A DNA stretch of 63,058 nucleotides, counting the filler, from Rhabdomonas costata (taxonomy: Eukaryota), in the NCBI GenBank assembly GCA_019059605.1. It is 42 parts of 42 records of this genome, joined end to end, with 100 filler letters (N's around TTAATTAATTAA, not from the genome) between each part and the next. Parts side by side here need not be neighbours in the genome. Positions count along the whole stretch, not along the records: positions 39,107 to 40,510 come from JAHMHO010016934.1; positions 40,611 to 42,014 come from JAHMHO010016935.1; 40 more parts are not named here. One strand, 5' to 3'. How positions within the stretch are numbered: position 1 is the first letter of the stretch; each line of letters starts with the position of its first letter. This document shows positions 1,406 to 40,899 of this stretch, one piece after another. The notes under the pieces are model-generated. The model saw only the letters and a program-made list of their open reading frames with translations, did not search any database and had not been told where the DNA came from. A program made the position numbers and the translations under genes.

Positions 1406-1505
1406 NNNNNNNNNNNNNNNNNNNNNNNNNNNNNNNNNNNNNNNNNNNNTTAATTAATTAANNNNNNNNNNNNNNNNNNNNNNNNNNNNNNNNNNNNNNN
1501 NNNNN
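1406..1505. other. Artificial contig spacer N44-TTAATTAATTAA-N44 (first of 41 copies, one every ~1.5 kb up to 61556-61655)
   Basis: An identical 100-bp block separates contigs of 1403-1405 bp (one, 51139-52534, is a few bases shorter). The 12-mer gives stop codons in all six frames. No synteny can be inferred across spacers. Confidence 0.99.
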
Positions 1506-1588
1506 TTGTGTTTTTTTGCGCTCTAAATAGGTGTGTGGGTGGACTTTGTCATGAAACCAATTGCATAATGTAATGCACCTCCAGAAAC

Positions 1589-2910
1589 TCATAATTTGGG
1601 ACGTTCACGGTTTGAAGTGCATTTTGGATCCAGTTGTGATGTGGACAGTGTTTTCGGGTTTGGATTCGTTTGCTGTGCCGCCGCGCCCCTCGAAGTCAGA
1701 GGCCACGGTTTTATTCCCATCCAAGTGTTTTGCATAGGCGAGGCTGGACGAGGCGCGAAAAGTGAATCGTTCACGGCTGGGGAGGTTGCCTGATTAAGAC
1801 AAGGCGATTATGTCAGTTTGGGTAGCGTTCGGCACGAAAGCGTGCGCACATAGACCCCGGAAAAACCACTTGGGGATGTAAGTGGCCACAGGACTCGCGG
1901 GAGGCATCCAAAAATTTTGCCTTATACCATCACGTGTTTTTGAGGGCCAACCCGTTGAAAATGAGAGGCCATTAGCGTGGTCGCTGCCAGGATGCCATTT
2001 AAGCTAAGAAGCGCTGAAACTGAATGGGAACCATGCATAGAAGTCAACCCGTGAGGTTGGATAGGCATTCATTCCTTCAAAAGAATAGTTCGTTCCAAGT
2101 GCATTGGCGCTAACCAAGACATATCGGTTCAACTGGTCCACTGAATCGAAGAACCGGTTCCACAGGTGCAGCACGTTCCGCCTCTTCTGGTGCTGCAGTC
2201 TGAATAGGTTTGCGCAGAAAGAAGAATTCCTCTGTGATGAAGGTCAGCTTGTGCATGGATACCAAGGGTGTGTAATTTTGTAATTGTGTTTCTTGTTCCG
2301 GGTCTTGTTGCGCAGCGTGGACTTCGCGTGGGTGTGGATACCGAGACCGGGCGCCAGCTGGTGCGTGATGGAGATGACGACGGCAGTCGGGTCAACGTTG
2401 TAGTGCGGCAGGATGATGTACGCCTGGCGCTATCTCCCCCTAATGGCCACGTCTGTTGCTGATTACGCTCGACTTACAGAATGGGGAATGATCAACAACT
2501 GCCTCGTGCCTGTGAGTAAGTCCACTTTGTTGCAGCAGAAAAGTTGTCACCAAACCAGTCGGCCGCCAATTTGCACAAGTGGCAGATGACGGGGTCAGCT
2601 TAGTCCGAAGATTTCGACAACACCACTTCGTGGCCAAGCCAACACCGGAGGAGAATTCCAAAGGTTTGAGGTTGTAGTTCGAATCAAATTGCTGGGGAGG
2701 GAACTACGCGGAGCCACGCGCCTACCAAGGCATCCCTGGGAGTGAGAGGTTGATCTGCCGGGCTAGCTCGTCAATTTCCTCCACATATATAGACCGGAGG
2801 AGGTGCACAGCACAGTTGCGAATGAATTCTGTAGATACAATTGGCACGCCAAGCACTTTAAAGCCCGCACCGCTCCTGCATCTGGACGACCCTCACGGTC
2901 TCCAGGGCGC
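1589..2910 (-). mobile_element. Degenerate CRE/SLACS-like non-LTR retrotransposon fragment
   Basis: The minus strand near 2870-2790 reads CGLKVLGVPIVSTEFIRN, matching the G-x-KVLGVPIG end-of-RT motif. Near 1760-1690 it reads PRPASPMQNTWMGIKPWPLTS, resembling a decayed RPAD...W..G restriction-like endonuclease motif. Many stops and frameshifts lie between. Confidence 0.55.
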
Positions 2911-5659
2911 NNNNNNNNNNNNNNNNNNNNNNNNNNNNNNNNNNNNNNNNNNNNTTAATTAATTAANNNNNNNNNNNNNNNNNNNNNNNNNNNNNNNNNN
3001 NNNNNNNNNNTGTTTGTTGTGATCTGTTTGTCCTTATTTATGCCCTTTCTATATCCCCCGGCGCCTTATGCCGCGGCGACGTCAAAGCATCAGCACTGTT
3101 CACCCAACGGTGGCACCAAATGGTACCCATGGCGCGTTGACCCCCGCCGTTGCGGCGAGGGAATAGATGGGGACCACCGTGCCCTTCTAAATCGGCGAGT
3201 TTGGATGGGATCCCTTCTTTTGCGCGTCCCGGTCGCACGGACGACGGCACGGTGGAAGGTATCAGGTTTTGCCAGCTGGCGGGCAAGGGCTTTGTTTGGT
3301 ATGTGCGTCGCGGGTAGAACCAATTTCCCGGAAATAAGCTGAAATCAAAGTGGCCCTAAGATGCCACGGCGGAAAAGCTCAATCAAAGCTTTGGGAAACA
3401 CTGCAATATACACAGAGTCCTCGAGGCGTTTGTTTTCACACCCGAAGTGTTGGTCTGGCTTTCGTCCAGGAGCACCGCAGGCAGCAATCCACCGCCATTA
3501 CAAAGTATTTTACGGTTTTGAGGGTCGAATATGACCCGAACCCGAACTTTGTGACATGAAGGGGAGAGCGAAAAACCAATTGCCTACCGGACCACTCTGT
3601 CGCTGTGCGGAAAGGGAACAGAAATGCTGACACACCGAAGAGTAACAAAGAGCACGTCCAGCAGTTTCCGGCAGAAAGGCGTGGTTTAGCAGCCAATAAC
3701 AGGGGTCACCTCTCGGGCCCATCAGGCCGACGAGTCAGGCTAAGCGCAAAGGCCCGCAACACCACGGACAGGACCCCCGAGTAGAAGAACCACACGGGGA
3801 AACACGCCATGCGGAAGAACGGACATACAACGAAAATAACTCATGAGGACAAAACAGAGAGGTGCATTCCTTGACAAGAGAGAGAAAGGCACGAAGGCAC
3901 ATCCAGAGAGCAGCATCAGAAAGCCCAATCAGGCGAAGAAGGAGAGATGCCAGCACATGGGGTGCGTAGCATGACCGGGCCTTTGATTAAGAGAACCTTA
4001 ATCAAAGGCTAGTCGCTAGAGAAACCCTCCTTCCTTCCTTCCCAAAAATCAACAATGGTCAGCCACGGGGAGACGGGAAGGGGTGTGATGCTGCGTGCGC
4101 AGGATAGCGCGCATGAGCTCACAGGCTCACCTCCCACACTCCCCACAGGTGTCGGGAAGTTGGTTCACAGCAACCAAATTCCACCGGGCTGCACTTAGGC
4201 TTAGTCTTCGTCGTCAGAGCTCTCGTTGCCGCGGAAATAGGAGATCTGGGCGGTGTTGTCCAGGGCTTGGGAGGCCTGCCACCACCAGCGGAGATAAAAA
4301 ACGAAAGCGCAAGAGGGAAAACGGATCGACGGAGGGGTTGAAGGGTGAGGTATCTTTGTAGCCCTCCAAAGGATTCAAACTTTTCTCTGTGTGCTCTTTC
4401 TCTGTCACAAACAACNNNNNNNNNNNNNNNNNNNNNNNNNNNNNNNNNNNNNNNNNNNNTTAATTAATTAANNNNNNNNNNNNNNNNNNNNNNNNNNNNN
4501 NNNNNNNNNNNNNNNTTGTTGTTGGGGTGAGAATTTGGAAAGGACAGCCGAAAAAAAACGGAGGTAAGTGTGGCCAAAAGATTGCGCATGCAATTAGAAG
4601 TTTCACATAGAAACAAAAAAGCGTTTTAGACAAGCTACAGACTCGAACACTGCCTAATCAATGCCTTTTCATGCAAGGAAACAAATTGGGAATTCGCTCT
4701 TACCCTTTGCTCTTACTAAAGAGAACCTTGCTTCCACGTGAAGACGGACGAGCAGCCTCGTCCGTGTCGTCCGAAAGATTTAGCGAAGAATGGGGCGAAT
4801 CGCTGGTCATCTCAACACACAACAGAAACCAGAAATGCTGCAACTGCTGTGAAATTCAAAGTTCACGCCCAGGTTGATGTAACATGCATGAACACCACTC
4901 ACTTTCTCCCCACTGTTGAAGAACGCTGATAATGCTGCAGTAAACGACGTTTTTTTTCGCAGTATGCGGGAAAAACGACCTGTCCTGGGGGGGAACCCAC
5001 CGCACCTGTCCTTTCAAAAGAACCTGTCGGCGTCTCTGTGGAATCAGACTGAAAAGATTCATGAACCAAGAAATGTAGATAAGGTAAAAACATCTCTTCC
5101 AATTGCACCAGCTCACTCTCCTATACCACTTTCCTGCTTCCCTTTCGGCGTGGGTGGTTCGTTGTAAAGTTCGTTGTGGGTGGCTGTCGTAACTCGGGTG
5201 CGTGGGGCAAGAAGCGGCGCAAAATGGAACGAAAGAGCCTCCAAGTGGCACCACCACCGGCAGAGGATGAAATCGGGACTCTCCTGACTCCAAGGACCGC
5301 CCACTCAGCGTTTCGGGAGGCCGCTGTATATTCAAAAGACCCCAGGCCTCCTTCGTCTTAGCCCCCAAAATGTAAAAAAAAGTCTATTCTACCATTTGTA
5401 TGAAATACGTCAGCAAGTTTTCTTCGTTTCAATGGGAAATTAAAAGTAAGGAAAATAAGAAATTCGTTTTTCTGGAACTTTGTGTAATCGTGATTGGAAT
5501 TCCTTTTCTTTTGCGGCGGCAATTTACACGAACCCCTCAAATAGCAGTGCCGCTTCATTATCATCAGCGGCTTTCATGCAGCTCATCAGATACTTCTCAA
5601 AGTGATTTTTTAACAGTAAAGGTCACGGAACCGTGGAACAAGACAAGAGCAGCACCGTT

Positions 5660-5920
5660 CTGGGTCTTATGTGGGCCCACCCACCCACTTCGAGGACTTC
5701 TGCACAAAGAGATTAGCCGGGTTGGAGGGTTTCTTGGATCGGCTGGATGCATTAGACTGTCCGCAAACCTCCTTGCTTCTACTGCGTTCGTGCCTGGGGG
5801 CGTGCAAACTTTCCTACGCGGCACGGACAATCCCTTTCGCCCTGCTTGAGCCCGCTTTGCGCACTTGCTCATCCTTTGTTCGCGACGAGCTGTGCCAATG
5901 TCTCGGGTCTCCCATATCGG
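5660..5920 (+). mobile_element. CRE/SLACS-like non-LTR retrotransposon, RT thumb region
   Basis: GPPTHFEDFCTKRLAGLEGFLDRLDALDCPQTSLLLLRSCLGACKLSYAARTIP matches the Q.ALLLLR.C...KL.Y..RT.P pattern of CRE-clade elements. Runs off the contig end. Confidence 0.7.
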
Positions 5921-6054
5921 NNNNNNNNNNNNNNNNNNNNNNNNNNNNNNNNNNNNNNNNNNNNTTAATTAATTAANNNNNNNNNNNNNNNNNNNNNNNN
6001 NNNNNNNNNNNNNNNNNNNNGGGTGGGGGGGGGACGCCGTCCGTCGGTGCATAC

Positions 6055-7087
6055 ATCAGCAAAGGTCTGGTCCTGGCCCCAGAGGGTGAGCAGGGATCCT
6101 GGGGGAAGCGGGGGGCGCACGATGAGCACCCCGCGTTCCCCGGGCTGGGTGGGCTCCCCGCGCTCCGTGACCACGGCGCAGTTCCACCCGAATGTGGGCT
6201 TCGAGGCGGAGCCCGGCTTGATCGGGAAGGTCTCCAGGCCCTTGTGGTTGGTGATCATCGGCCACCCTGTTTGGATTTTGCGTTCATTGGAGAGAAAGCG
6301 CGGTCCTCTAGAAGAAGAACAAGAAGAAAAAGAAGCTCGACCACGCGAAGAACAGCGACAGCCGGCACCCGTCCATGACGCCATCCTCAACCATGGGGTG
6401 GGTCATCGTGCTGCTGATGTGCGTGCCCGTGCTGTTGGCGCTCCTGCTGGGCGTCAAGCCCCGTGCTGTTCGCGCCTGCTCTGACATAGGTGTGGATCTG
6501 CTCCACCCCTCCTCCCCCGTGCTGCTCCACCACAACGAAAACGCAAAGACGAAGGGGAACCGTCACCAGCTGCATGGCACTGTGCGTCACCACAGGTTCA
6601 GTAAATAGTGCAGCACCATTTCAAATGCATCCCATAAAAAAGGAGCCCTGTCAAAAATGTACAGAAGCTAAACGTTTAACGCCCCCCCTCCCCACACAAA
6701 AAAATACAAGAGAGTCCCAGCGAAACTTGAGATGACAGCAGGGAAGGGTCAACACACACCTATTTTGGGATTTGGGGAAGGGTCACACACACACACACAC
6801 ACCGCTCTCGGTCTGCCAATAGTGGTCGATCACCTCCACGCCCAGCGCCGCGGTGGCCCAGGCGTGGGTAGGCTCGTCCAGGGGCTCCCCGGCCAGGAAG
6901 AGGTGCCTCAGGCTGGACAGGTCCGCGCCGCACCCCCGAGGCCCTTGGGCCTCGGGGAACTTCCGCAGCACTCGCATCGCCGTGGGCGCGGAGAACATCA
7001 CCGTTACCCCGAGGCGCTCCACCAGCGACCACCACACCGTTGGGGTGGGGTAGTCCGGAGTCCCCTCAAACAGCACCGCGGTGATAC
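6055..7087 (-). CDS. prpE: Propionyl-CoA/acetyl-CoA synthetase (PrpE/ACSS3-like), two internal exons
   Basis: Exons 7087-6803 and 6266-6055 join in frame across GT-AG intron 6802-6267: LFEGTPDYP...FSAPTAMRVLRK...LFLAGEPLD...IDHYWQTESGWPMI...KPGSASKP...PLPPG. Confidence 0.92.
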
Positions 7088-7618
7088 CTTGGCGGGGAAG
7101 GGGGGGGGGTAGACGGTGGCAAGGTGACAGCAAGGAAAAAGCTTGCTCCTTCTCCTATTCGTCCATAGACTGCATCATGATGACGATGATCAAGCAGTCT
7201 TTTGATCATAAGGACTGCATCCGCACCAATCCCCATCATGTCCGCCATCCTCACCTGGTCTCTCATTTTCCACAATGGATCCAACTGTGTGAGTTTCTTT
7301 TTTTCTTCTTCCAGGAGTGCTCCAGCGGCCTCGGGAGATGCATCGACAATCAGGGGTTCGCACCGCAAAAGGGTGGAGGTGTCTTCCCCCTAGCCTCTGG
7401 GTGACTTTGGGGTCCCCAGCCCGGNNNNNNNNNNNNNNNNNNNNNNNNNNNNNNNNNNNNNNNNNNNNTTAATTAATTAANNNNNNNNNNNNNNNNNNNN
7501 NNNNNNNNNNNNNNNNNNNNNNNNTGTTGTGTGGTAAGGGTCAAAGGGGTCAAAGGCAGCCATCAAAGGCTCCTCTAGTTTGAGCTGCTTTGAGGTTGTT
7601 CTTGCTTCTTGCACTCAG

Positions 7619-8888
7619 GTGGCCTGTGCAGACGTGCGGGTGCCCATCCCTTTGGAGGAGTTCCAGCTGCAGTTCCCCAACAACACCCACTTCGAGCCGG
7701 AGATCTTTCCAGGCCTGGTCTCCTGAACTCCTCTTTTTCTCCCTGCCTTTTTTTCGGACGACCATGATTCAGTCCCCTCACGCTAATGCAGCACACGTTT
7801 CAGCTCTTGCTGGCAGCGCGCTTTGAGCAGCCACGGAGGACCTGCCCGAAGGTTGGTTACTGTGTTGATCGTGCCCCAAATAAGTTGTTTTAGGGGTTCA
7901 TTAAAGTTCACTGGCCCACCACCGCCTCCCGAGACCAAGAACCTTGGAACACGGATCGCGAGTCACAGGGTGACATACTGTGATGTGGCATGTGTGGACA
8001 CCTGCGGTTTTGGGGGCTTGCGGTGATGTCAGGTGTTCCGCCTGCAGCAGCCCCACTGCGCGTGTGTGCTGTTCTGCTCGGGGAAAGTCGTGGTGACTGG
8101 GGTGAAGGTACGCTGCTCTTCTCTTGGTGACTGAATTAGACGAAGGAGTGAGTTGTAATGTAAATAGGTGTCCTCCTTCCGAATGAGCGTTTGTACCCAT
8201 TTGTTTCGGAAGCTTTTTATGTTCGCCCCGCAATACCAAGATGAAAGTATTGCCGGAGGAAAAGGAGGTAAAATAGAATTCAGACGTGCACGGATAATGC
8301 GGGGGCGACTGAGTGTTTGAATCTCTGTTGCTTTGATATCTCATTTGAGAAGCATTGCAAGGGTTTTCATCGTTCGGTGTTTGATTTTTGAGGTTGCTAA
8401 TCATCTGTTTTTGAGGTCTTCGAGTTTTTCCGAAGGGACTTGAGACGAAATTCCCAATTTAGAATATTAAGACAGAACTGAAGGCCGGCCCGCGTGCCAG
8501 CATGATTTATTGAAAACAAGAAAAGCAAAGAAAAAATCTGCCACCTTAACTCAAGGGCCGGGGTGTTTCAAGAAGAAGAAAAAACAGAAAGCCCCTTAAA
8601 AAAGGCGAACGGAATGACTCGTTGAATCCGTCTTTTGTTTCGGACCCTATCAGGCCGACACGAATGCCACTGATAACAGTGCGTAAACCGCACTTCACCA
8701 GCACACAGCACAGGCCTCACCCCCCACACCGCTGGCCCCTTCCCATTTGCAGTCCATGGGCGATGCCGAGGCGGCTCTGCGGCAAGTCTTCGCCGCGGTG
8801 CAGGCCGTGAAGGTTGACCTGGAGGAGTTCCAACCCGTGGACCCCGTCCGCCACGCCGCCGCGTTACGAGCCCGTCGGGCCAGGGAAG
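7619..8888 (+). CDS. TATA-binding-protein family factor (second core repeat plus C-terminal extension)
   Basis: Exons 7619-7717, 8033-8107 and 8753-~8888 splice in phase 0: VACADVRVPIPLEEFQLQFPNNTHFEPEIFPGL-VFRLQQPHCACVLFCSGKVVVTGVK-SMGDAEAALRQVFAAV, matching TBP repeat 2 (YEPELFPGLIYRM...LIFVSGKVVLTGAK). Confidence 0.88.
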
Positions 8889-11266
8889 GCAAGCTCGAGC
8901 CAATGCCCCGGCCCGCCCTCCACCCCACCNNNNNNNNNNNNNNNNNNNNNNNNNNNNNNNNNNNNNNNNNNNNTTAATTAATTAANNNNNNNNNNNNNNN
9001 NNNNNNNNNNNNNNNNNNNNNNNNNNNNNGTGGTGGGGGGGGGACTACGACGGGATCAGAAGGGCAGCACAGGGCGGCAATACGGCAAGTGGGGAACAGA
9101 AAGGAGAGAGTAAGTCCGTAATGTTAGTGTCTGAGGGTTTGTCTGCGTGTGTGGAGTGTGGGGCCGACAGAGGGGCTGCAGCACAAAGGAGGCAAGAGGC
9201 GTTCCCCAAGAGGCTTGGGTGCTTGGGGGCCCAACCCCTGCTCAGCCACTATTTTAACTGAGGTTGATTCAAGGTACAACCATACGGCGGGCATCAGATC
9301 CGTAGCGTTGCGGCGTGGGTGCTTGCGATGCGGCGGATAAGAAGATCACGTTCTGAAACTCATTGGGAGTTTCCAACTGAAGCCCCGGGAACGCACTAAA
9401 ACTACTTATCGACCTGCCTACCCACCTACCTATCTACTTATGTATCGCGGGATCTTAGAATCAGCCTGCTTGAAAACGACGCCGATTCTTTCTGGTCTGG
9501 CGACTCCAATATACGACATTGCTCTAAGTTTTGGGGTGCAACTTCCACAGCTCGAAAACAAAGTCGAAATCGCACAAACGTCAATTTTGCGGAAACCAAT
9601 CTGTGGAACCGTAGCCATTCCGTACCCCCTCCATATTAAAAAGGAGACTGCCATGTGTATCCCACCCGCGTCGAGGTCATGAAACACAATGCAACGGCAA
9701 CACGCAAGACCATTGGAACACTCTGGAAATCCAGGGGATCTGCAGTGTTCAGGCCAGGAATGGACGGTGAGAATGAGAAAGCAAGCGCAACCATCTGCAC
9801 CACCACTTTCACTGCGGGAGCTTTTGCTTACGCGGATGAGCGATGGGACACAGAAAAGGGAGAGAGGGCCCACAAAAAGCAACCCCCCCCCTAAAACCAA
9901 CGCAACAATGCACAACACAAGAAGGGAAAAGAGGTTATGACTCCAACCGCGGCGCTAGTGGCATGCAGAGCGTGCCTCCCGAAACGCCACTCAGCCGGAG
10001 AGCGGTGCACCACGGTAGTGAATGCGTCCCGCGATCGAGAAGACAGGGAAGACAGGAACGACGATCAGCCCCCGGGGCCAACCCAAAGCAAAAGCAAAAA
10101 GGTATCGTAATGGGCTCATAGTGTACACGAGCAGGTGAAGGCCCCCGGGAAATGGTTCACGAGAGCGGTGAACGCATGCAGTGGGAACAAAGAAAAGGGC
10201 TACAACACAAAAAAGGGCACAACGGACAGCACTGCGCAAAAAGCTGCTCGTGAGAGACGGAATGAGTGCGCGAAGGCCAGGGAAGCGGTAAAGCTGATCC
10301 TAGGTTCGCGCAGTTGGAGGAATTGCCGCAAAGCGTGTCAAGAGACAAAGAACCACCAACGGTACAGTCCCGACGCACCCGAAAACAGCGATGACCAAAG
10401 AGATACATATTTAGCAAGGCAGAAGAAGAAGANNNNNNNNNNNNNNNNNNNNNNNNNNNNNNNNNNNNNNNNNNNNTTAATTAATTAANNNNNNNNNNNN
10501 NNNNNNNNNNNNNNNNNNNNNNNNNNNNNNNNGTGGTGGGTGTGTTTGGGTGGTGTTGGGGAGCAAGCAGTTTTTCCCGGACTGGTGAAAACGGATCGTG
10601 AATTCCTACAAATATGGTAATCTCGGGAACAAAGGAATCATTTCGCTGCCCCAACCCCTGGGCCTCATACGGCGCCGCTTAATGCTGCAATGTTTGCACT
10701 TGAGAGGAAGGCATCCACAACATGTCCATAATCCCTCATCATCCCTTGTTGCGAATAGGATGTTGAGCCCCTTGGAATAGTAACCGTCGGATGTCTCGCT
10801 AATGTTGCAGTGAACAAGTGCTGGGTGCTTGGGGAGCTTCCAAGCTTTGCTGCAGAACAGCCGCTGAACTTGCGATTGTCTGAGGTCGCGATGTGGCAAC
10901 CGTGTGCACATGGTGCCTGGTTTGCTTTCTTCGAAGCAAGTTCTCTCTTTCCCGACCGGGCATTTTTCGCATTCGCTTCGCAATTCAGATGTTATCGGCA
11001 TCTAGTAATTGCGCAAGAACGCTCGCCGTGGTCGCAATCCTTTCATTCAAAAGCTATTTCCCACCCCCCATGTCAGGTTGCTTGCTATAATGGTTTTCAT
11101 TAGGTTGGTACACGCACTCAAGCAAGGACAAGAAAGGACCATTAAGTGACTGCCTGCCTCTTTTTTGTTCAAGCCGCTCTTCTGTGTGAAGGACTCTTGA
11201 CGCTGGACATTGACCTGGTGAACTGTGTTTCCATTGGTCAGGGCTACTTTCTGCTTTTTGCGCTCT

Positions 11267-11548
11267 ATGGCGAGCCCTGCTACCGCTCTTCTGGTGGTGG
11301 ACATGCAGCGCGACTTTCTGGAGCCCGACGCCCCACTGTGCGTCGCCGGAGGTCTGTCGTGCCTCCCCAAGGTCGTCGAGGCCGTGGATTTCGCGAGGTC
11401 CCGCCAGCTGCCCATCTTCTGGGTGGTGCGCGAGAACGACCCCTCGGGCATCGATGCGGAGGTGACCCGGCAGCACCTCTTCGCCACCCCGGGTGCCCGG
11501 TACTGTGTCCGGGGCACCCGCGGGGCGGAGATGGTTGAGCCCCTGCAG
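11267..11548 (+). CDS. Isochorismatase/nicotinamidase-family cysteine hydrolase, first coding exon
   Basis: MASPATALLVVDMQRDFL...IFWVVREND...CVRGTRGAEMVEPLQ, then donor GTTTGG. Confidence 0.9.
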
Positions 11549-12352
11549 GTTTGGTTTGGATGCGTTCCGCAGGGACCACGCTTCCTTTTTGCTTCAGATC
11601 CGGACACCCTGAGTACTAATGCCAGTGAGGCAGCAGCCAAAACTCGCCAGTCAAGGACTCAGTTTCAGCCGAAGGCATGCTTGAGGAAAGATCATCAAGG
11701 AGACTCTCGCATCCTCCGTGCTGTTCAGCGCAGTTGCATTGCTATGTAACGCTCTGAGTAAATTACCTGTGCGGCAATAGCCCTCGTTTTCACTTTCGTT
11801 TCGGCTCACAAAATTGGGTGATGTATGTGCTGGTGCTGTGGTGACATTTGCTGGTGTTGGTGTTCCCTGTCCTCATGCCTCAGTAGGTAAGTGAGTTTTA
11901 CCTTTTGATACACCACACGCATGCGCGGAGACAACGNNNNNNNNNNNNNNNNNNNNNNNNNNNNNNNNNNNNNNNNNNNNTTAATTAATTAANNNNNNNN
12001 NNNNNNNNNNNNNNNNNNNNNNNNNNNNNNNNNNNNGGTGGGTTGGGCAACTGCCATGGAACTCGGAAAAGTGCGCTTACTTTTTTTTTTAGCAGTTTCA
12101 AAATAAAAACTAAAGCAGGTAAGTAAGAACTTACGGTTTGGCGGTAAAAACAGAATATCCGAAGCCGAAATAGGCGAGCGATTGAAAGTCATATTGGAAT
12201 CTTCTCCTTGGAGTGTTACTTACTTTAAGACTCGCTAATTCAGGTCGAAAAGCAAAAGGCAGCCAAGGTGCCCAGCCCCGTCCCGTGGCAATGGAGAGTA
12301 GTTTTTATTTCTGAGTGGCGACGGAGGGAAGTGATGGGTGGGGATACCACAG

Positions 12353-12497
12353 GCCTTTGCCAGGGTTGCGGGCCTGGAGCTGGCGAACAACAGCGCACAG
12401 CTGCACGGTCCCCTGGCAGGGAAGAAGCGAACGGCGTCGATGAAGATGCTAAGTGTGGCCGAGGCAAAGGCCATGACGGCCGAGGCGTCACGAATTG
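12353..12497 (+). CDS. Hypothetical protein, internal exon
   Basis: CAG acceptor, GC3-rich frame AFARVAGLELANNSAQLHGPLAGKKRTASMKMLSVAEAKAMTAEASRI, GT donor. No family recognised. Confidence 0.5.
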
Positions 12498-13540
12498 GTG
12501 CCTCACCCACGCCTTTCCCACTCGATTGCAACCGCCTGCCCTCATCATTTGCCTTTTGTCAGCGCGAAGGAATGTGGGGCTTTGCAGCAGCTAGGAATCG
12601 CAGGATTGCAGGGGCGCTGAAAGTTCAAATGACGAATGACGTATGGCAGCGAGCAGGAAGATGCATTTCCTTTCGTTTTTCTTTTGGAGCTGCAGCACAT
12701 CGTCGGTTGTGCTGGAAATGTGCGTCAGCATGGATTCATCAGCTTTACGTGTCCGTGCTAAATACTCGTATTCGAACCCTCTGTGGATGTTTTACGGTGT
12801 GAGAGTGTGAGTGAATGAGCGAATGGGTGGGTGAGTGGGTGAGTGGGATTGTGTGTGTGTGTGTTGGTTTGAGGCCGCCGGAAGCGCAAGGTTACGTTCG
12901 TTTCCAGTGGCAAGCCTTTTGCCTGATGTGTGCGCAGTAGGGGATGCCTTCCCTGAAGAAATGGCACTTTGGGGGTGGGGTGCCCGTATGGGGTATTGTA
13001 GGGTATCGTACAGTGATAATATACTGAATATCATTACAGTATAACAGCTATAATATAATATTATAAACACTGTACATACGGGGTTAGGGATGTACGTGTC
13101 CCCTGGGATTCCAATAAAAGCTTCAGAGAGTTAGGAGGTGATGCACACGTTCCCTTTATTTTTTCCGTGATGTCTTGGGCTGCTGAGCGCAGCGGAGCGG
13201 CCGAAGATCCTAGTATTTACGGGAGTAAAGATTTACCTTCATCTTTTGTTCGCTGTGTATAATGCCTACAATGTTTTAATATAGCCATTATGCTATAATA
13301 TCGCTATACTATAATATCACTATACTTTTGTGATATTATAGCTTATAGCACCATTTTGCGGCCCGTACAATACCATTCTAGTATGATGATAGTATAATGG
13401 CTACAATACCCGGGCACCCCCTCCCCACACCCCCAAACACNNNNNNNNNNNNNNNNNNNNNNNNNNNNNNNNNNNNNNNNNNNNTTAATTAATTAANNNN
13501 NNNNNNNNNNNNNNNNNNNNNNNNNNNNNNNNNNNNNNNN

Positions 13541-14653
13541 TGTTTTGGTGATCGGGGGCGCCAGGGATATCACGCACGACATCGTCGTGGGGTCCCCACC
13601 CCACCCGTAGGGGCACGCCCCTGCAGCACCCCGCCGCTCCCGATCATTAAAATGACAAAACATGCAAAACAAGAGAAGGCCAGATGGTGGAGGCACGGAG
13701 AAGGGACGAAGAATGAAGAGGAGAAGGGAAGGCAAAGGGACTTGGTGCTGGGATGGAAGGAAAAAATAGTATATGCACGTGGGTATTAAATAAAGTGAAA
13801 GTTGAGAATCAGAAGAACAGAAATGCAGAAAAAGAACGTCGTTTTTTTTTTGCAAAAAGTCACTGGTTCACTTGAGGACCTATGGCCAACTCACAATCCT
13901 CCACAGCCGCTATTGGGTCGTTTGGCTGGAAGGAGGTCCTTCGTAAACCTTACCGAGGTAGTCAGATACAGTGCTGTGATACTTCAAAATCGGCCCTTCT
14001 CCACATTCGCGACCTGACAAAAACCGCCCTCACTGGAACACTAGGGATAGTGAAGGCCCCTCTGATTCTACTTGCCAGGCACACGGGCAACGGGCAACCT
14101 TTAACCTTCCACTTTATTTTCAACTGGCGGTTGTTTCGCCTCATAGAGGTTTGTTGCGATCCCAAACAGCCTTCTAACATAGATCGTCAATATTCTCCCG
14201 ATACCCCTAGTTACGACATACCCCTACTTACGCAAACGTAGGGGACACCTTAACAGGTAGGTGCGCGCCGCCACTTTGCAGCGGGCAGGAGCGAGCCCCA
14301 CGGATTGCGTCCCAAGGAAGGGGGGGGGGGTATGGGGCATTCTCAATGCCACACATAGACACGCAGCCACGCACCTGCCGTAACCGTGAACTCCCGAGCG
14401 TAGGACAGTCCCCCCTGGTCCTTGGTGGTGACCTCCACCACCAAGGAAGGGGTGGTCTCGTTGGCATACCGCAGCAGCAGCTGCGCCCCAGAGATTGTGA
14501 AGTGATCCGCTGAGGGCCCCCCAGTGAGGGAGTAGGTAAAGGAGTCCCCGGGGTTGTAGTCCAGCGAGGACAGCAACCCCACCACAGTGCCGGGCTGGCC
14601 CGGGGGAAGGTACTTTGTGACGGTCAGCTGGAGCCCGTAGGGTGCACGGTTAA
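13541..14653 (-). CDS. Cadherin-like repeat protein (one cadherin domain exon plus a Cys-containing exon)
   Basis: Exon 14653-14375 (279 nt, phase 1-1): VNRAP...PGTVVGLLSSLDYNPGDSFTYSL...HFTISG...VEVTTKDQGGLS...FTVT. It splices in frame to 13620-13541 (GACPYGWGGDPTTMSC, EGF-like tail). Confidence 0.8.
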
Positions 14654-15529
14654 CTGAAAAGAAGCAAAGGACATCACGGACGTCACAGACAAGGGACAAG
14701 TAGCCACACTGATTTTACTGAAAACCCGCCGGTCATTACAAGGTTGTAATTACAACAGCCAACATCTTTGCTGGCACACCGGCCTGTGGTCAGGTGGATG
14801 GTGTGCCAGCTTCCTCATCAGCCGAAACAAAGACAACAAAAAGAGCTCAAAAATAGTGAAAGGTTCTAATGGAGAATGAGATGAGAAGCGGGCAGCCTCC
14901 TTAGTAGTACTGCCATCCCACGAAAGATGAGCCCCCCAAACAANNNNNNNNNNNNNNNNNNNNNNNNNNNNNNNNNNNNNNNNNNNNTTAATTAATTAAN
15001 NNNNNNNNNNNNNNNNNNNNNNNNNNNNNNNNNNNNNNNNNNNGTTGGGTTTTATTGTTGCCCCCCTCCCTCTCCTGTTCTTACCGAGGAGAGGGAGGGG
15101 GGCAACAATAAGGCCCCAGCCAAAGGAGAGGGACCTCGAGATGTACACCCAGTTTTTCCCTGTGCCGATGGGCCTTGCCTATAGAAAAGGTGAATCGAGA
15201 AAATCTCGAGTTGATAGTTGCCTCAACAAAGTCAAAGAGGTCTTATACGGAGTCTATTTGCAGTTGCGATTGTGAGGCCATCAGGGGAACAGAGGACAAC
15301 TTCCAGGTCAGCAAGAAGTTGTCACCGCGCCATACCCAGCTCAGTGCTCAAAGCACTGTGCGTGGGCGAGTTGGCACCATCATTTCCATTTGAGAAACCG
15401 CAGGGTAGCTAGACCAGTAAACACAAGGTTGGAATTGAGGGACAGCCTCGCCGGCGTTTTCGTTTCGGGCCGTGGCATGGATCAGCAAACTCTTTTCAGA
15501 AAACGGGAATGGTGCTCCCCGCCAAAGAC

Positions 15530-15742
15530 TCAGCGCTCCTGCAACAGCTCCGCCAGGATTCCGCGGGTGGCGAGTTGTGAAAACGTCCCAACTTGCACCA
15601 CCTCACCCTTCTCCATCACCACGACCTGGTCCGCTGTCTTGGCCAGCTCCAAGCGGTGGGTCACGGAAACAAGGGCAAGCCCTTCTTCATGCACAAGTCT
15701 CAGAAGAGGCCGAAATATCAGGCTCTCCGTATCGGGGTCCAG
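15530..15742 (-). CDS. ABC exporter nucleotide-binding domain, last exon
   Basis: After a CAG acceptor: LDPDTESLIFRPLLRLVHEEGLALVSVTHRLELAKTADQVVVMEKGEVVQVGTFSQL...stop, containing the D-loop and H-loop. Not in the ORF track. Confidence 0.9.
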   Translation of the reverse strand: MDPDTESLIFRPLLRLVHEEGLALVSVTHRLELAKTADQVVVMEKGEVVQVGTFSQLATRGILAELLQER

Positions 15743-16828
15743 CTGTGAACAAATGCGGCCCCACTCCTCGACATACAGAAAAAGCAGGGGATCCTATGCA
15801 GGGGAGAATGAACAGGTAAATACCATCACTGGTACTGGAGTAGGGCCGAAACGTTGTGTCGTTCTCTTATTAGGCGACTACTGCGTGTGATCATTCTTTC
15901 GAATTGTCTTTCGCTGACAAAACCATTTCTGTTATCCTCGCCTCGCGCGTGCGTTTGAGTTGGACTTTCCATCACAGAAAAAGTAGTCAGAATGTTCATT
16001 AGGATAGTCATGCACATGCGCATGTAAGTCCTATGGCAACTATCAACGGTGTGAAGCAGCACCTGGCAAAAGTTCCTTCCCATCTCATCAAAAATGGCAC
16101 TTGCGAGTTCTCAAGCGCAGATACAAACCGGGAATCCGGCCCACTTCGGTACCAACATCAAGTATTCCTGGGCTACGGTTTAAGATAAGTAAGATGTACT
16201 CCAACAAAGATTCAAAACATGTTCTTTCTAAAAAAAAATTTCATCTTTCTTCTTTTTCGCAGAGATGGGCACATGCGTTTCCTACAAAACAAAAGCGGAC
16301 AGAGCAAGCGTGTATTATCAGTGTCCTTGTCGTTCAAGGCTTTTCCATCACCCAAGAAAAAGCAGAATAAAAGCAAAGTTTAGTCAGGGTAGCAACCCGA
16401 AAAAAATATTACACTCAGTAATGCCAACCGACAACGGCACCACACAANNNNNNNNNNNNNNNNNNNNNNNNNNNNNNNNNNNNNNNNNNNNTTAATTAAT
16501 TAANNNNNNNNNNNNNNNNNNNNNNNNNNNNNNNNNNNNNNNNNNNNTGTTGTTGGGCAGCTTTTGGTGGACAAGTGGTAAAAGCATTAGTGGAGGTGGA
16601 GAGAAACCCGCGACGCGGTAATAGTGGGCGGCCAGGTGAGAACATTTCCTTCGGGAAGAGGAGAGCTTTGTTGAAATTATATACTGCTCCAATGGAAATG
16701 AATGTCTCACAGTAATAACGTAACACCCTCCAACCGTGTCGGAAAGACAACGAATTCGGAGAACCACCACAACGTCCCAGGGCTTTCTGACAATTCCAAA
16801 GCACTCACCTGATTCTATTGGAGTGTAG

Positions 16829-17951
16829 GTGCAGCGTGGCCAGGGGCATCAGCGCGACTTCAGGGGGGACCTGCTGCAGCTCGTTGAACGACAGATCCAA
16901 AGAGGTGATGTGCTGGAAGGGCTGCTGCACAAGAACCTGCGTCCCGTCCCGGACTCTCCCTTCCCGACCAGACCTGCCCTGTCCGGAAACTCAGAATATG
17001 GTATGTAACAAGGTTCAATTCGACGTCTTTTTCCCTGCACGGGTTAGGTAATCAGCCCGAAAGGTTTTCCGGGAAGTGACCTAAAAATTGGGAAGATATG
17101 GAGTACTGCTACGTGAGTAGTGCGATTCTTTCGGGTAATTCCGTGTTTGCGTTGGTTTTTCAAGAGACGTGTAGCGGCTGCTTGAGGAGAAGGTAATGTA
17201 AAATTCCGTGTTGGAGTACAGTTCAGAGGTAACAGTGTGACGTACTCTAGCAAAAACAGATGGAGGCAGGGGCCTTGGTCAACCCCCTGCCCGTGTTTGT
17301 TTCCAGACCGAACTTACACACTACTTCGGGTCCGCACACACTCCGCCACCACCCAATGAGATCTATTTGTGGCCGGCAGATGGAGGGCTGCATGGATCGG
17401 CATGGCAACGACCTGGCTTGGCAGACGGGCGTATCCTACACACAACAGCTGGCGCGCCGTCTTTTTCCTCGGAAAGGTCGATCGAAAAAAGAAGGCGGTG
17501 GGATGAGGAAAAACTATCCTTCTGTATTGGGAATTGCGCCCCATTTCCCCAAAGTTAAAGGCAGGGTAAATAGGCAGAAGGGGGGGGGAACCTCGTGGTG
17601 TACGTGTTCGGCCCTGGGCATTTTGGACTCATCAGTTGCTCATCTGTGGTCAAAACAGAGTTAGAAGGTGGTAGCGTTCACGATTGCTAATGGTTGCGGT
17701 AACGTTTTGTTGGCAGGTTACGTTTGTGACACCCACTCGCACAAGCGGACCTCGACCACAGGCTCCCACTCCCGCAAGTCCCGCAGGGAGTTATGCGCCA
17801 GCTTCAGCCCCGAGGCGCAGTACCACCCCAGCAGTAGCTCCGGCCGCCGCGCCGTGCCGGACTCCGAGGAGGTCCCCAGGCCCACCCCAAGGCTCCCACT
17901 GGCACTCACGCTAGGCCGACGCGGCGGCCCCCCTCGCCCGTTGATCGGAGG
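16829..17951 (+). CDS. Hypothetical protein, two exons
   Basis: Exon 16829-16999 or 16829-17000 (AAWPGASARLQGDLLQLVERQIQRGDVLEGLLHKNL...) with a GT donor is phase-compatible with an exon from 17717 (YVCDTHSHKRTS...). Confidence 0.5.
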
Positions 17952-18221
17952 NNNNNNNNNNNNNNNNNNNNNNNNNNNNNNNNNNNNNNNNNNNNTTAAT
18001 TAATTAANNNNNNNNNNNNNNNNNNNNNNNNNNNNNNNNNNNNNNNNNNNNGTGTGTTTGGTGGTGGTGGGGGGAGGGAGACCAGTCAACTAGTCATACT
18101 GATCGTCCGAGTACCACTTGTTCGAGAGTCAATGAGAGATCATGCTCATTTTGTTTCCCGGGGAGCAGACATGGTTGACTGAACAAAGCAGGGTGGCAAG
18201 GGAGGGCTGTGGGTGACGTAC

Positions 18222-19168
18222 GCGGGGGTCTTCAGCAAGCCCTGGCGAAAGACCTGCTCCAGCTTGCGCGCGGCCTCCTTTGGGGCCAACGGAGCAGGAT
18301 ATTTCTCTGCACCAGAAAGAACAATAATGAAATAGACGCATCACATCAGCAGGACAAGCCCAGAAGAAGGAAAAGGAACAATGGTTGCCTGAACGACCTG
18401 ATCACTTCACGAATTACAAACGAACGTGAATTTCTGGCGGACTTTGGAATGTAAACACATTTGGAATGTAAAAACGAGCAGAAGGCAAAAAGAGGGGGGC
18501 AGGAGGCAGCGACCGACATAGGGGCCCAGTTGTTCCCACACTATGGGATACAGGGCCTCTGGAGTCCCGCACTGCTTGGCCGCGTTGACTTCCACCACGG
18601 CAAAGGAAGGCACTCCTCTACCTTCCCCGGGGCTTGCAGCCTCTGACTGCCGCTTCAGCTCTGCCAGACAGGCCTTCACGCAGAGCGTCTTTCCACAGCC
18701 CACCAGCCCCGAGATGTCTATTTTTTCGTTTTTCGATCAATCACGAGAGAGAAGGACTGAGGGAGGGAGGGAGGGGTGAGGTCACAAATGCCCCGTGGAG
18801 AAGTGAGCCCCAGTAGCAGGCATACCACTGCAATTCCGGACACTGCAGGAAAGATCAAGAAAACTGCCAACCATAAGGAAGGTGATGAGATAATTGCCAT
18901 CGAGTGCAGGATAAGGCAGAGCGCCATTTTAGGTTCACCAGGCTCGACAACCGTTGTAAAGCTGCTCCGCAGAACAGCTCCAGTAACAAAGAACAATCAA
19001 AGCCAGGGCCCCTGTTTCACCGGCTGAAGTGGGACACTATGGAAAGCGCATACAAAGCACATTGGCTCGACGGTGGATCAGGTCCTGCATGAAGCCCAGA
19101 ATCCGCCCGCGCTCTTTGATTCGCCCCACAGTGTCGGGCTGGAACGACACCTTCAGCCGCTGCCTCAT
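18222..19168 (-). CDS. ORC1/CDC6-family AAA+ replication initiator, three exons
   Basis: Exons 19168-19054, 18717-18514 and 18306-18222 give RLKVSFQPDTVGRIKERGRILGFM...LYISGLVGCGKT...FAVVEVNAAK...PEALYPIVWEQL...AARKLEQVF (Walker A in ORC1/CDC6 context). Confidence 0.88.
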
Positions 19169-20232
19169 CTTTTAAAATGAAAAATGAAATCATTGGAATC
19201 TGGAGACAATGATAGGGTCTTGAAAGTAATCACATGTTTCTACCCACAGTCCGGACCGGGAATAAGTCTACCTCTAGCCTGGGCTACCCGTTGGTACGGT
19301 GTGGACAATGGCTGAATTTTCTCGAAGGGGGAAGTGTTTTGTTTATGGGACATTCGAAGATCGGACTTATTCCATCCAACGTCCAAATGTTGACAAATGT
19401 TGACACGAACGATTCCCAAACTGCTGGGTAGAAACATGTGATTACGTTCAACACCNNNNNNNNNNNNNNNNNNNNNNNNNNNNNNNNNNNNNNNNNNNNT
19501 TAATTAATTAANNNNNNNNNNNNNNNNNNNNNNNNNNNNNNNNNNNNNNNNNNNNCTGTAGAAGTGCGCGTGTGTGCGTGTTTCACATGCATACACGTGC
19601 ACTTCTACAGTTTGCGGGCTGTGTGCAAGGACATAGAGGCTGCTTCTGGTTTCTGCTCATGGCATTCCGGATCAACGTCCTGCATGGATTAGCAGAAGGG
19701 AGAGGGGATAGAATAATAGAATAATGCGCGGTGGTTCAGTGGCCCCCAGCTGGAAGCCTTTGCAGAACCTTCGTACACGTGCAAAAAAATTAGCGACGTT
19801 AAATGGTCCCTCGGAAAAGACGTCTCCTGCCTTTCGCTGTCCGCTGTGAGTGGCCCCTGAGAGGGGAAGGGACCACGTTCTGCTTTTTGCAGGAAATCGC
19901 ACGTATACCACTTTTGGCACTCTTTTTCTCATAATAAAGGGAGAAAAACTCTGCACCCATTCTGTGTGGAAGCAACCGGGCGGGTTCTTTGGCAGAATAA
20001 CAGAACCCCCATGCAGGATCCCCGAGCAACCAAATCAAGGATGCGCACGCGCGATACGATTCAATTCTTGCACAGGGCAATGGTGAGCTCCCTCTCAGCA
20101 TCCTGGAGCCCGGGCTTGCTCCGATGTTGCTGTCCAAGGTGCCCACCTACCGTTACTGTCTCCTGAAGGACTCTGTGGTGCTATCTCTCGGTCCCTTCTC
20201 GTCATCACACACAAAAAGAACGGGGAACCAAA

Positions 20233-39006: not shown

Positions 39007-39515
39007 NNNNNNNNNNNNNNNNNNNNNNNNNNNNNNNNNNNNNNNNNNNNTTAATTAATTAANNNNNNNNNNNNNNNNNNNNNNNNNNNNNNNNNNNNNN
39101 NNNNNNGGGTTTGGGGGTGGCGTACATGCTTGCTTTGGAAGTTTGTTTGGAAGTCCATTTCACTCCGTTTTAACTTTTTTCCAAAAAGTACCGTATTTCA
39201 TGTGTCTTTGGTTATTGATCATGGGGCACCGTTCACCCCCATTCCTGCGTGCTTTGTACACTGTGTACTATTACCACTTCATTGCCAACAACATTGTGTG
39301 GCTGTTGTTTTCGTACGTAGTGAGTGAGGACGTCAGGAGCGAATGAGCGACCAAGGAACGAACGAGCTGATGCGAGTGAGTGACTGTATCTGTGAACGTA
39401 GCCGACCTATGTCGGTGGAGTGAATCATCATTGGAGGAAGCATTCGACGTACGGAGAATGCTGACGACTGAAGAATGTATCCTTCCCGTCGCTCCCTCTC
39501 GGTCGCTCCTTCTCC

Positions 39516-39767
39516 TCTTGCGTCACTTCACCACCATAAGGTGCTTCCGTTCCGCCCTTCAACCATGGTTCGCTCCACCACCATAAGGATGGTTACGCTC
39601 ACTCCGAACTCAGACCTCAGGATTCTCAGGTCCTCGAATCCCTCCTCAACGTGTGGTTCGTTCCACCGGCATAAGCACGGTTTCACTCACGCACTTCACT
39701 TCAGCCCTTCTACCCACGTGTCTCTTGCGTTCGTTCCACCACCCTAAGGTGCTTTCACTCACTCCGA
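39516..39767 (+). repeat. Array of four degenerate hairpin-forming units (~40 bp each)
   Basis: Units start near 39516, 39566, 39654 and 39722. Consensus is approximately GTTCGYTCCACC-hairpin with (A/C)TAA loop-TTCACTCACTCCG. Confidence 0.8.
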
Positions 39768-40899
39768 CCGGGCGTAGCCACAGGAAGGATACTGTGGGTG
39801 GTTTCACTCTTCAAGGGTTCACTTTACGGGTTCACGTTCTCACTCAAGGATGATGCAAGGGTGGAAGGAACGAAGCATGGGTGCGTCAGCGAGCCATGCG
39901 TAGTAGGATGGATGGAAGGATACAAGGATGGATGTTGGAGGGCCACCGGCAGGTAGGAGGGTTCTTCTTCTGAGTCATGCTGAGTTACCCTTACGCCCTA
40001 ACTCACCAACAACATCCACCCTACCACCTCAGAAGCGCTAAGAACACAAACACAGGATGCACTCAACCAAGCCATGCCAACACCGCTAACCCCACGAACC
40101 CATCAACACGAACCCAACATCAGCCCTCAACCCCACACATCCTCTGACACAGCAAGCACTAACACAGCGTAACACACCAAGCACACCACAGGCAACAATG
40201 ACACGAAGCCCTCAACGCCACACACCCTCCAGCCTTGAACCCACTGACACTGACACCATCAAGCACTACAACAACGCTACGACCAACACAACCAACGCAT
40301 CGCCTCGAACCACCACACCCACAACACCAGCAACAGAGTCCAGAATACCGCTAGAGACAGAGACAGGAACATGCACTAACACAGCACTAGCATCAACCGA
40401 CACACGAACCCATCCTCTCCAACAGAAACAAACACACCCTGAGAGCCAAGAACGCAGGAACCATCAACATGCACTACAGAAGCACTAACAACGGAAGCAT
40501 CCCAAAACCCNNNNNNNNNNNNNNNNNNNNNNNNNNNNNNNNNNNNNNNNNNNNTTAATTAATTAANNNNNNNNNNNNNNNNNNNNNNNNNNNNNNNNNN
40601 NNNNNNNNNNGTGGTGTTTAACTTTTTTCTTCAGGTCAAGTGTATAAAAAAGCTGATATTCAAGTCGTCATATGCAGCGGACCCCTGTCCAAAACCCACT
40701 GGATTCTCTAAGGCAAGTGGCAGCCTCACACCCTCAACAAAAAAGGTTGCCTCAGCGCGCTCCATATGACGACTTGAATATCAGCTTTTTTATACACTTG
40801 ACCTGAAGAAAAAAGTTAAACAGCACCTGACCTGCACTAGCACGCACAGTCCACCATCGCGTTGTATGCGCTGATGTGAAGTTGGCGGCACCGGCATAC

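What the first reader, a model, noticed from the sequence alone, without database searches (positions are those of the whole stretch)
39107..40510. Outlier contig: hydrophobic coding fragment, structured repeats and a strand-skewed tail (candidate organellar or extrachromosomal molecule)
Seen: no obvious splice architecture. A T-rich frame open from the contig start encodes a very hydrophobic peptide (GVHACFGSLFGSPFHSVLTFFQKVPYFMCLWLLIM...YYYHFIANNIVWLLFSYVV) that stops looking protein-like at ~39320, before any stop. Next come GAGCGAA/GAACGAA/GAGTGA motifs (39320-39425), their complements TTCGCTC/TTCGTTC/TCACTC (39485-39845) and a C/A-rich, T/G-poor tail (39995-40510). Established: diplonemid mitochondria carry short gene modules inside non-coding constant regions. 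Inference: this may be a mitochondrial gene piece (TFFQKVP loosely recalls ND2 TWQKxAP) on a small chromosome, or a plasmid-like element.
Basis: partly seen in the sequence, partly recalled or inferred. Interest (0 to 1): 0.75.

Follow-up and report, generated by a model that had tools for sequence, protein, structure and literature searches.

The report
Mitochondrial non-coding arm in nuclear DNA
This short contig joins single-copy DNA to a repeat-rich stretch with no recognisable gene that elsewhere in the genome follows intact mitochondrial genes of a Euglena relative, so it is likely a piece of mitochondrial DNA pasted into a nuclear chromosome and not a gene fragment on a mini-chromosome.

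Summary
The described features exist, but the 'hydrophobic gene piece' is not supported. The first ~210 nt are single-copy, nuclear-like by 4-mers, lack this genome's mitochondrial codon usage and match nothing significantly; their hydrophobicity is what 39% T gives. The rest (about 39316-40501) is one variant of a high-copy non-coding family. In other contigs that family follows cox2, cox1 and nad1 through a shared ~45-nt motif, in fixed polarity: gene, motif, G/T-rich tail, core motif, hairpin array. The organism is a euglenid with contiguous mitochondrial genes and TAG=Tyr (a published code), not a diplonemid with gene modules. Most likely the contig is a young nuclear insertion of mitochondrial DNA (NUMT, ~0.6); an amplification or assembly chimera is the main rival (~0.25). 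This scan found the same arm, hairpins and code earlier on other contigs of this genome (e1-9216016, e1-9334778, e1-9153606); I re-tested them here. Modest interest: the arm's architecture was not found in print in six searches.

The parts
39107..39315 (.). Single-copy, nuclear-type DNA; no supported gene. The first 3 nt are probably a contig-end artefact.
   Evidence: Only self-match in G000; 4-mer score -0.154, inside the nuclear range (73 of 246 pieces lower) and below all 176 mitochondrial-type pieces; codon test; a read-derived contig fits only from 39110.
39110..39139 (+). Ten codons resembling a cytochrome P450 haem-binding motif; probably chance at a G/T-rich contig end (about 20% real exon).
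   Evidence: E 0.99 to a P450; atlas score 0.83, lead only; no Pfam hit; the degenerate pattern has 8 hits in G000, 5 within 12 nt of a contig end, only this one with C-x-G.
39316..39326 (.). Junction between single-copy DNA and the repeat family (about 10 nt uncertain).
   Evidence: Family-like words start at 39316; BLAST cover starts at 39338; bridged by one record each in runs X1 (39110-39368) and X2 (39207-39385).
39316..39763 (.). Array of short repeats and hairpins on both strands; part of the shared mitochondrial non-coding arm.
   Evidence: near-identical to L002 apart from one substitution and one 40-nt unit.
39354..39385 (+).
   Evidence: its 21-nt core occurs at 18 places in G000, 0 for the reversed control.
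39433..39468 (+). Predicted hairpin, 10 Watson-Crick pairs plus 3 tandem G-A blocks; a diverged opposite-strand relative lies at about 39610-39673.
   Evidence: inverted repeat I7, 64 nt, 72%.
39488..39509 (-). Predicted hairpin on the minus strand, 5 Watson-Crick pairs plus 2 tandem G-A blocks.
39764..39781 (+). Conserved core motif of the arm (one-letter variant of the searched pattern).
   Evidence: The pattern matches 71 places on 68 other contigs, 0 for the reversed control.
39782..39994 (.). Conserved blocks between core and tail.
   Evidence: Shared with up to 16 loci per 40-nt bin; high summed depth.
39995..40501 (-). Non-coding tail, G/T-rich on the minus strand, homologous to DNA downstream of mitochondrial genes; the contig ends before any gene.
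   Evidence: L135 (cox2 end, motif, tail) matches 40175-40113 at 84%, E 9e-14; L024 (motif, tail) matches 40501-40269 at 76%, E 3e-51; no Pfam family above cut-off in three frames read with TAG=Y, TGA=W; skew equals that of the genes, 0.71-0.79.

Best explanation
The contig joins about 210 nt of single-copy DNA to about 1.2 kb of the non-coding arm that follows mitochondrial genes in this euglenid genome, and is likely a young nuclear insertion of mitochondrial DNA (NUMT) with no function of its own. Shown: the arm's link to cox2, cox1 and nad1 ends through a shared ~45-nt motif; its fixed order (gene, motif, G/T-rich tail, core motif, array); the excess of G-A-mismatch hairpin sequences; the nuclear-like, single-copy 5' part; a junction bridged in two runs of one sample. 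Inferred: that the 5' part is nuclear; that a broken mitochondrial molecule was captured during double-strand-break repair (general knowledge of NUMTs); that the insertion is young (near-identity to L002); that in the mitochondrion the arm serves as a shared control region of gene-sized molecules, the post-gene motif would mark transcript 3' ends and the hairpins would fold in single-stranded DNA as replication or end signals.
For: Mitochondrial origin of the arm: links from gene contigs; shared motif in 14 loci, of which 7 cox2, 2 cox1, 1 nad1, 4 arm-only; C/A tail downstream of the core in 34 of 68 contigs, upstream in 0 of 68; same skew as the genes; summed depth of the same order as cox1 (X1: arm 64-4611, cox1 2050-19205; the tool warns this is no copy number). 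Nuclear 5' part; depth 32.6 (X1) and 12.2 (X2), within the 9.6-114.5 (X1) and 19-43 (X2) of the nuclear-type part of L045. Real junction: unbroken records cross it in X1 and X2; no second continuation of the 5' part in G000. NUMTs look common here: 21 of 68 core contigs and 16 of 71 gene loci also hold nuclear-like DNA; decayed, frameshifted cox1 and cob copies beside such DNA (L043, L078, L079) cannot be made by a chimera; the cox1-nuclear junction of L045 is bridged by 33 nt in X2 and X3.
Against: All four runs are one sample, so the bridges are not independent, and they are assembled contigs, not reads. Nuclear depth is very uneven (0 to 114 along L045 in X1), as in amplified DNA, where chimeras arise. 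X3 and X4 do not cover the 5' part. The insertion's far end is not in the contig, so only one junction is seen. This copy shows almost no decay, which fits a chimera equally well. The 4-mer classifier was trained on this window's other contigs, assumed nuclear, and on hand-picked mitochondrial-type loci. No neighbouring nuclear gene anchors the 5' part. Every functional role of the arm is untested.
Confidence: 0.6

Rival explanations
1. The two halves are as described, but the junction is an artefact: a template switch during whole-genome amplification, or a mis-join at a repeat.
For: Uneven depth between and within runs; one sample only; arm copy nearly identical to L002; inversions and duplications typical of chimeras occur in mitochondrial contigs (L048, L054, L135). 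A published euglenid assembly of this kind used amplified DNA (PMC8219788, passages); how G000 was prepared was not determined.
Against: Records cross the junction unbroken at the depth of the 5' part in two runs; no other continuation of the 5' part in G000; decayed NUMT-like copies show that real insertions exist.
Confidence: 0.25
2. The whole contig is a rare mitochondrial molecule whose array ends in a unique or captured non-coding sequence.
For: Arm variants are very heterogeneous and many are at low depth; nuclear-like joins are about ten times denser on the array side (19 in 25.0 kb) than on the tail side (3 in 42.7 kb), as if arrays were molecule ends.
Against: The 5' part scores below all 176 mitochondrial-type pieces and has no G-A hairpin; joins inside genes are also frequent (16 of 71 loci), so the asymmetry may be assembly bias against the tail.
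Confidence: 0.07
3. The family is a nuclear transposon or dispersed repeat that happens to lie beside NUMTs.
For: It often abuts nuclear-type DNA, once an LTR-retrotransposon-like region (L005). Earlier notes read other skewed repeats of this genome as nuclear (e1-7217666, e1-9504259; not tested here).
Against: No fixed end: junctions lie 0-950 nt from the core. It follows different mitochondrial genes directly, in one polarity, through one shared motif. No coding capacity found.
Confidence: 0.05
4. One reading: a diplonemid-type chromosome with a short gene module (nad2-like) in a cassette inside a constant region, joined by trans-splicing.
For: A unique stretch beside a recurring flank is the expected layout (PMC5658414 Introduction). 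A very divergent module could escape searches.
Against: Genes of this mitochondrion are contiguous; cox1 is euglenid; the frame fails the codon test; nad2 is reported lost from euglenid mtDNA (PMC8130358, passages).
Confidence: 0.02

Closest known systems
NUMTs of non-coding mitochondrial DNA in Diplonema papillatum (PMC10161547, passages read: more than 1400 NUMTs, some from the constant region)
   Same: Non-coding, repeated mitochondrial sequence inserted in nuclear DNA of a euglenozoan, in many copies.
   Different: Euglenid host; donor genes are whole; only one junction is seen; nuclear location inferred from composition and depth, not from a long assembly.
Euglena gracilis mitochondrial DNA (PMC4700960, passages read; Spencer and Gray 2011 known only as cited there)
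   Same: Contiguous cox1, cox2, cob, nad1, nad4, nad5; many gene fragments; genes on separate contigs; repeats shared between molecules.
   Different: Here about 50% G+C with strong strand skew, TAG=Tyr, a ~45-nt motif shared by gene ends and G-A hairpin arrays, none of which appears in the passages read. Linear topology and terminal position of the repeats are untested here.
Mitochondrial code of the euglenid Rhabdomonas costata (PMC8219788, passages read)
   Same: UAG at tyrosine positions with UGA=Trp, contiguous genes, no sign of editing or introns.
   Different: The passages read describe four gene contigs and do not describe non-coding arms or NUMTs. G000 is cited by handle; its source was not established.
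Diplonemid multipartite mtDNA (PMC5658414 abstract and Introduction; PMC7049700 abstract)
   Same: A non-coding region shared by molecules that carry different genes (works like a constant region).
   Different: No gene modules, no cassette; the arm is a shuffled mosaic (69-100% identity, variable order) and not a near-identical constant region.

Membership tests
Diplonemid mitochondrial chromosome | Genes split into modules of about 40-550 nt | tested here: not met
   cox1 frame of 723 nt in L031 overlapping L033/L035 frames; nad1 frame of 337 aa; colinear with relatives.
Diplonemid mitochondrial chromosome | Unique cassette holds a coding module | tested here: not met
   No significant hit; fails mitochondrial codon usage.
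Diplonemid mitochondrial chromosome | Constant region shared by chromosomes | tested here: inconclusive
   The flank recurs, but as shuffled blocks at 69-100% identity.
Diplonemid mitochondrial chromosome | Circular molecules; trans-splicing and U-appendage editing | not testable with these tools
   Short contigs; contig ends do not overlap; no raw reads to lay.
Euglenid mitochondrial DNA (E. gracilis type) | Whole genes of the set cox1-3, cob, nad1, nad4, nad5, plus scattered fragments | tested here: met
   Six genes found in many copies; cox3 was not searched; cox1 nearest named relative E. gracilis.
Euglenid mitochondrial DNA (E. gracilis type) | Repeats shared between molecules that carry different genes | tested here: met
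   Shared motif and tail after cox1, cox2, nad1; nad5-type sequence joined to the tail in L094.
Euglenid mitochondrial DNA (E. gracilis type) | Linear molecules with the repeats at their ends | not testable with these tools
   Contigs only; array-side join excess is ambiguous.
NUMT | Sequence homologous to mitochondrial DNA | tested here: met
NUMT | Flanked by nuclear DNA | tested here: inconclusive
   One flank, nuclear-like and single-copy, with no anchored nuclear gene; other end outside the contig.
NUMT | Junction present in native DNA | tested here: inconclusive
   Bridged in 2 of 4 runs, all one sample, contigs only.
Transposable element | Defined termini shared by copies | tested here: not met
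   Junction offsets scattered over 0-950 nt; only L137 joins near the same place.
Cytochrome P450 exon (5' end) | Haem motif within recognisable P450 context | tested here: inconclusive
   Ten-residue motif only; not recovered by PF00067; pattern enriched at contig ends.

The most novel reading that the evidence does not exclude
This euglenid's mitochondrial genome is a set of gene-sized molecules that all carry one polarised control arm (post-gene motif, skewed tail, core motif, array of G-A-zipper hairpins facing both ways), a functional counterpart of the diplonemid constant region attached to whole genes; the hairpin array forms the replication start or the molecule end and is the preferred break point from which arms are captured into the nucleus, as in this contig.
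Probability: 0.3. Interest if true: 0.6.

Novelty: new variant of a known kind. Interest (0 to 1): 0.3.

Why it matters
The contig itself is probably an inert insertion or an artefact. Its value is as a witness to the non-coding architecture of euglenid mitochondrial DNA, known in detail mainly from Euglena gracilis. A shared, ordered arm behind whole genes would be a plausible intermediate between E. gracilis-type molecules and diplonemid chromosomes, and gives concrete candidate signals (post-gene motif, core motif, G-A hairpins) to test for transcript ends and replication. It also warns that 'unique hydrophobic frame plus recurring flank' in this assembly is usually a nuclear-mitochondrial junction.

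Tried and rejected
Peptide searches: Pfam none; 23 candidates, none at E<=10 among proteins of 127-2000 aa; 0 hits at E<=0.001 among 1.84 billion representatives; PDB only a P450 at E 0.99 and immunoglobulin-like receptors at E>=0.018, taken as chance; best E 0.064 against six frames of 75 mitochondrial-gene loci. P450 exon idea: considered, left at about 20%. Tail as a hidden gene under TAG=Y: no family over cut-off (DUF2304 at E 0.07 only). Kinetoplastid minicircle (resemblance of the contig start to a recalled conserved block): dropped, since G/T-rich starts are general and the organism is a euglenid. Rfam: nothing on this contig. Plasmids: no match. Long tandem repeats: none, best score 47. 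No RNA holder listed; this says nothing about expression. Runs X3 and X4 give no cover of most of the 5' part. Scan for related euglenid cox1 contigs in metagenomes returned 80 loci at 41-47% identity, none close, so conservation of the arm in relatives is untested. The G/T-rich region upstream of the shared motif in L024 could not be identified. The junction count of 38 for gene loci is over-counted by the script and was not used; 16 of 71 loci was. L051, L052, L056 and L061 were left out of the gene-locus count as not of this mitochondrial type or unclear. Literature searches listed no paper on this arm or on euglenid NUMTs of this kind; only listings were seen for most hits, the library lacks subscription papers such as Spencer and Gray 2011, and no supplements were opened, where non-coding flanks might be described.

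Full report
Setting. The window is 42 unlinked contigs of about 1.4 kb joined by N spacers; the finding is one of them, G000:C16934. Neighbouring contigs carry no positional information. Contig ends in this assembly are biased: 32 of 42 start G/T-rich and 22 of 42 end C/A-rich, so the first and last few bases are unreliable.

Observation. The frame, motifs and skewed tail are present as described. The tail is a real outlier (78% C+A; at most 62% in the other 41 contigs). The peptide is not: it lies on 39% T, and 404 of 867 stop-free shuffles are as hydrophobic.

Two halves. A search of G000 with the contig gave 54 matches besides itself among the 40 candidates scored of 264, all from contig position 233 onward, at 69-100% identity and in shuffled order. 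The first 239 nt match only themselves. Family-like words begin at about 39316.

Organism and its mitochondrial genes. Pfam searches of G000 found cox1 (62 matches), nad4/nad5-type (40, including two foreign-looking contigs), cob (44), nad1 (18) and cox2 (25). The genes are contiguous and carry in-frame TAG. In an alignment with 11 relatives the TAG codons of cox1 fall in Tyr (or Tyr/Phe) columns, including the invariant WTLYPP and HPEVY. The nearest named relative is Euglena gracilis (57%); unnamed environmental proteins reach 84%. UAG=Tyr with UGA=Trp is published for a heterotrophic euglenid (PMC8219788, passages). So the host is a euglenid, and the diplonemid model of 40-550-nt modules (PMC5658414 Introduction) does not apply.

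The 5' part is not a mitochondrial gene piece. Nine real gene pieces have A or C at 11-19% of third positions, use TAG for 24 of 41 tyrosines and score +0.40 to +0.70 on a leave-one-gene-out codon model; the 5' frame has 44%, 0 of 6 and -0.38. A 4-mer classifier puts it among nuclear pieces (73 of 246 score lower) and below all 176 mitochondrial-type pieces. No search gave a significant hit. Its first ten codons resemble a P450 haem motif, but the pattern gathers at contig ends (5 of 8 hits) and Pfam does not recover it; I leave it at about 20%.

The flank is mitochondrial non-coding DNA. cox2, cox1 and nad1 end in or just before one ~45-nt motif, found in 14 loci (7 cox2, 2 cox1, 1 nad1, 4 without identified gene). 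It is followed by a G/T-rich tail. L135 runs from the cox2 end through the motif into tail that matches window 40175-40113 (84%, E 9e-14); L024 runs from the motif into tail matching 40501-40269 (76%, E 3e-51). A core motif occurs at 71 places on 68 contigs, 0 in the control; I fetched all 68. With the core oriented as in the window, the C/A-rich tail lies downstream in 34 of 68 and upstream in none. The skew equals that of the genes. Three tail frames read with the mitochondrial code gave no family over cut-off. Read on the minus strand, the contig is therefore tail, core, array, then unrelated DNA; the gene would lie beyond 40510.

They are arms of predicted hairpins in which short Watson-Crick stems alternate with tandem G-A blocks: 3 in 39316-39990 (mean 0.04 in 200 shuffles; none with eight other dinucleotides), 51 in 15.4 kb of 14 hand-picked arm contigs, 4 in 57.6 kb of the other window contigs, 0 in 9.2 kb of gene contigs. 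The 'complements' are copies on the other strand. The lead came from e1-9334778; the definition was set after seeing the motifs, and folding in the cell is untested.

The junction. Summed depth rises from 32.6 (X1) and about 12 (X2) on the 5' part to 64-4611 and up to 2315 on the arm. On control locus L045, cox1 has 2050-19205 in X1 and the nuclear-type part 0-114.5. These sums are not copy numbers, but they place the 5' part with nuclear DNA and the arm with cox1. One record each in X1 and X2 crosses the junction by more than 31 nt on both sides. At 40191 and 40195 all laid depth in X1-X3 shows another letter, so this copy is not the abundant version (contigs drop rare variants). Similar joins are common: 21 of 68 core contigs and 16 of 71 gene loci hold nuclear-like DNA, at scattered offsets, which argues against a transposon with fixed ends. 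Some gene copies beside nuclear-type DNA are decayed, so true NUMTs exist. Against certainty: one sample, uneven depth, one visible junction, and near-identity to L002, all compatible with a chimera.

Mechanism and odds. NUMT by capture of a mitochondrial fragment at a nuclear break, 0.60 (mechanism from general knowledge); chimera 0.25; rare mitochondrial molecule 0.07; nuclear repeat 0.05; diplonemid-type module 0.02. That the arm is of mitochondrial origin: about 0.9. Its roles in the organelle (3'-end signal, replication or end structure) are inferred only.

Comparison and novelty. NUMTs from non-coding mitochondrial DNA are known in Diplonema (PMC10161547, passages). E. gracilis mtDNA is described as linear fragments with terminal repeats, whole genes and gene fragments (PMC4700960, passages; PMC8130358, passages). 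The ordered arm with a shared post-gene motif and G-A hairpins was not found in print, with the limits given under Tried and rejected. Earlier notes of this scan describe the same arm, hairpins and code on other contigs; they are not independent support, and I re-tested the points used. Verdict: new variant of a known kind, interest 0.3.

Noticed in passing
L024:1-730 (G000:C2784), also L023, L026: A long G/T-rich stretch, open in several frames under TAG=Y/TGA=W, lies just upstream of the shared post-gene motif, where a gene is expected; no Pfam or PDB hit. Could be cox3 or another very divergent mitochondrial gene.
   Followed up: partly
L028:280-1030 and L022:470-928: A 750-nt balanced-composition stretch between a G/T-rich 5'-type flank and the core motif, shared by two contigs at 92%, with a long inverted repeat in L022 (805-912); no true Rfam match. 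Candidate divergent rRNA piece or other non-coding gene.
   Followed up: partly
68 core-motif contigs: Joins to nuclear-like DNA are about ten times denser on the array side (19 in 25.0 kb) than on the tail side (3 in 42.7 kb); natural ends, fragile hairpins or assembly bias.
   Followed up: partly
L137 (G000:C4472):180-240: A second contig joins unrelated nuclear-type DNA to the arm within about 10 nt of the same place as the window's contig; other copies join elsewhere.
   Followed up: partly
L069, L095, L162, L126, L127, L134: Upstream flanks of cob, cox1, cox2 and nad5 also share short G/T-rich blocks, suggesting a common 5' signal; L095 and L162 join such a flank directly to the array.
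   Followed up: partly
L051 (G000:C65586) and L052 (G000:C39239): Complex I subunit fragments without TAG and with 60% and 35% G+C, unlike the host's mitochondrial genes: probable bacterial and other-eukaryote contaminants in the assembly.
   Followed up: no
L080 (G000:C227:497-2183, minus): A clear nuclear cytochrome P450 gene in two large exons.
   Followed up: no
L005:700-1951 (G000:C1621): Arm fragment next to a decayed LTR-retrotransposon-like integrase/chromodomain region (read by eye from translations).
   Followed up: no
window, all contigs: Contig ends are biased to G/T at the start and C/A at the end, which creates Gly/Val/Phe/Cys-rich pseudo-motifs at contig starts.
   Followed up: yes
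window 40611-40830: The next contig starts with a long inverted duplication (about 40619-40700 against 40760-40825), a possible amplification or assembly artefact.
   Followed up: no
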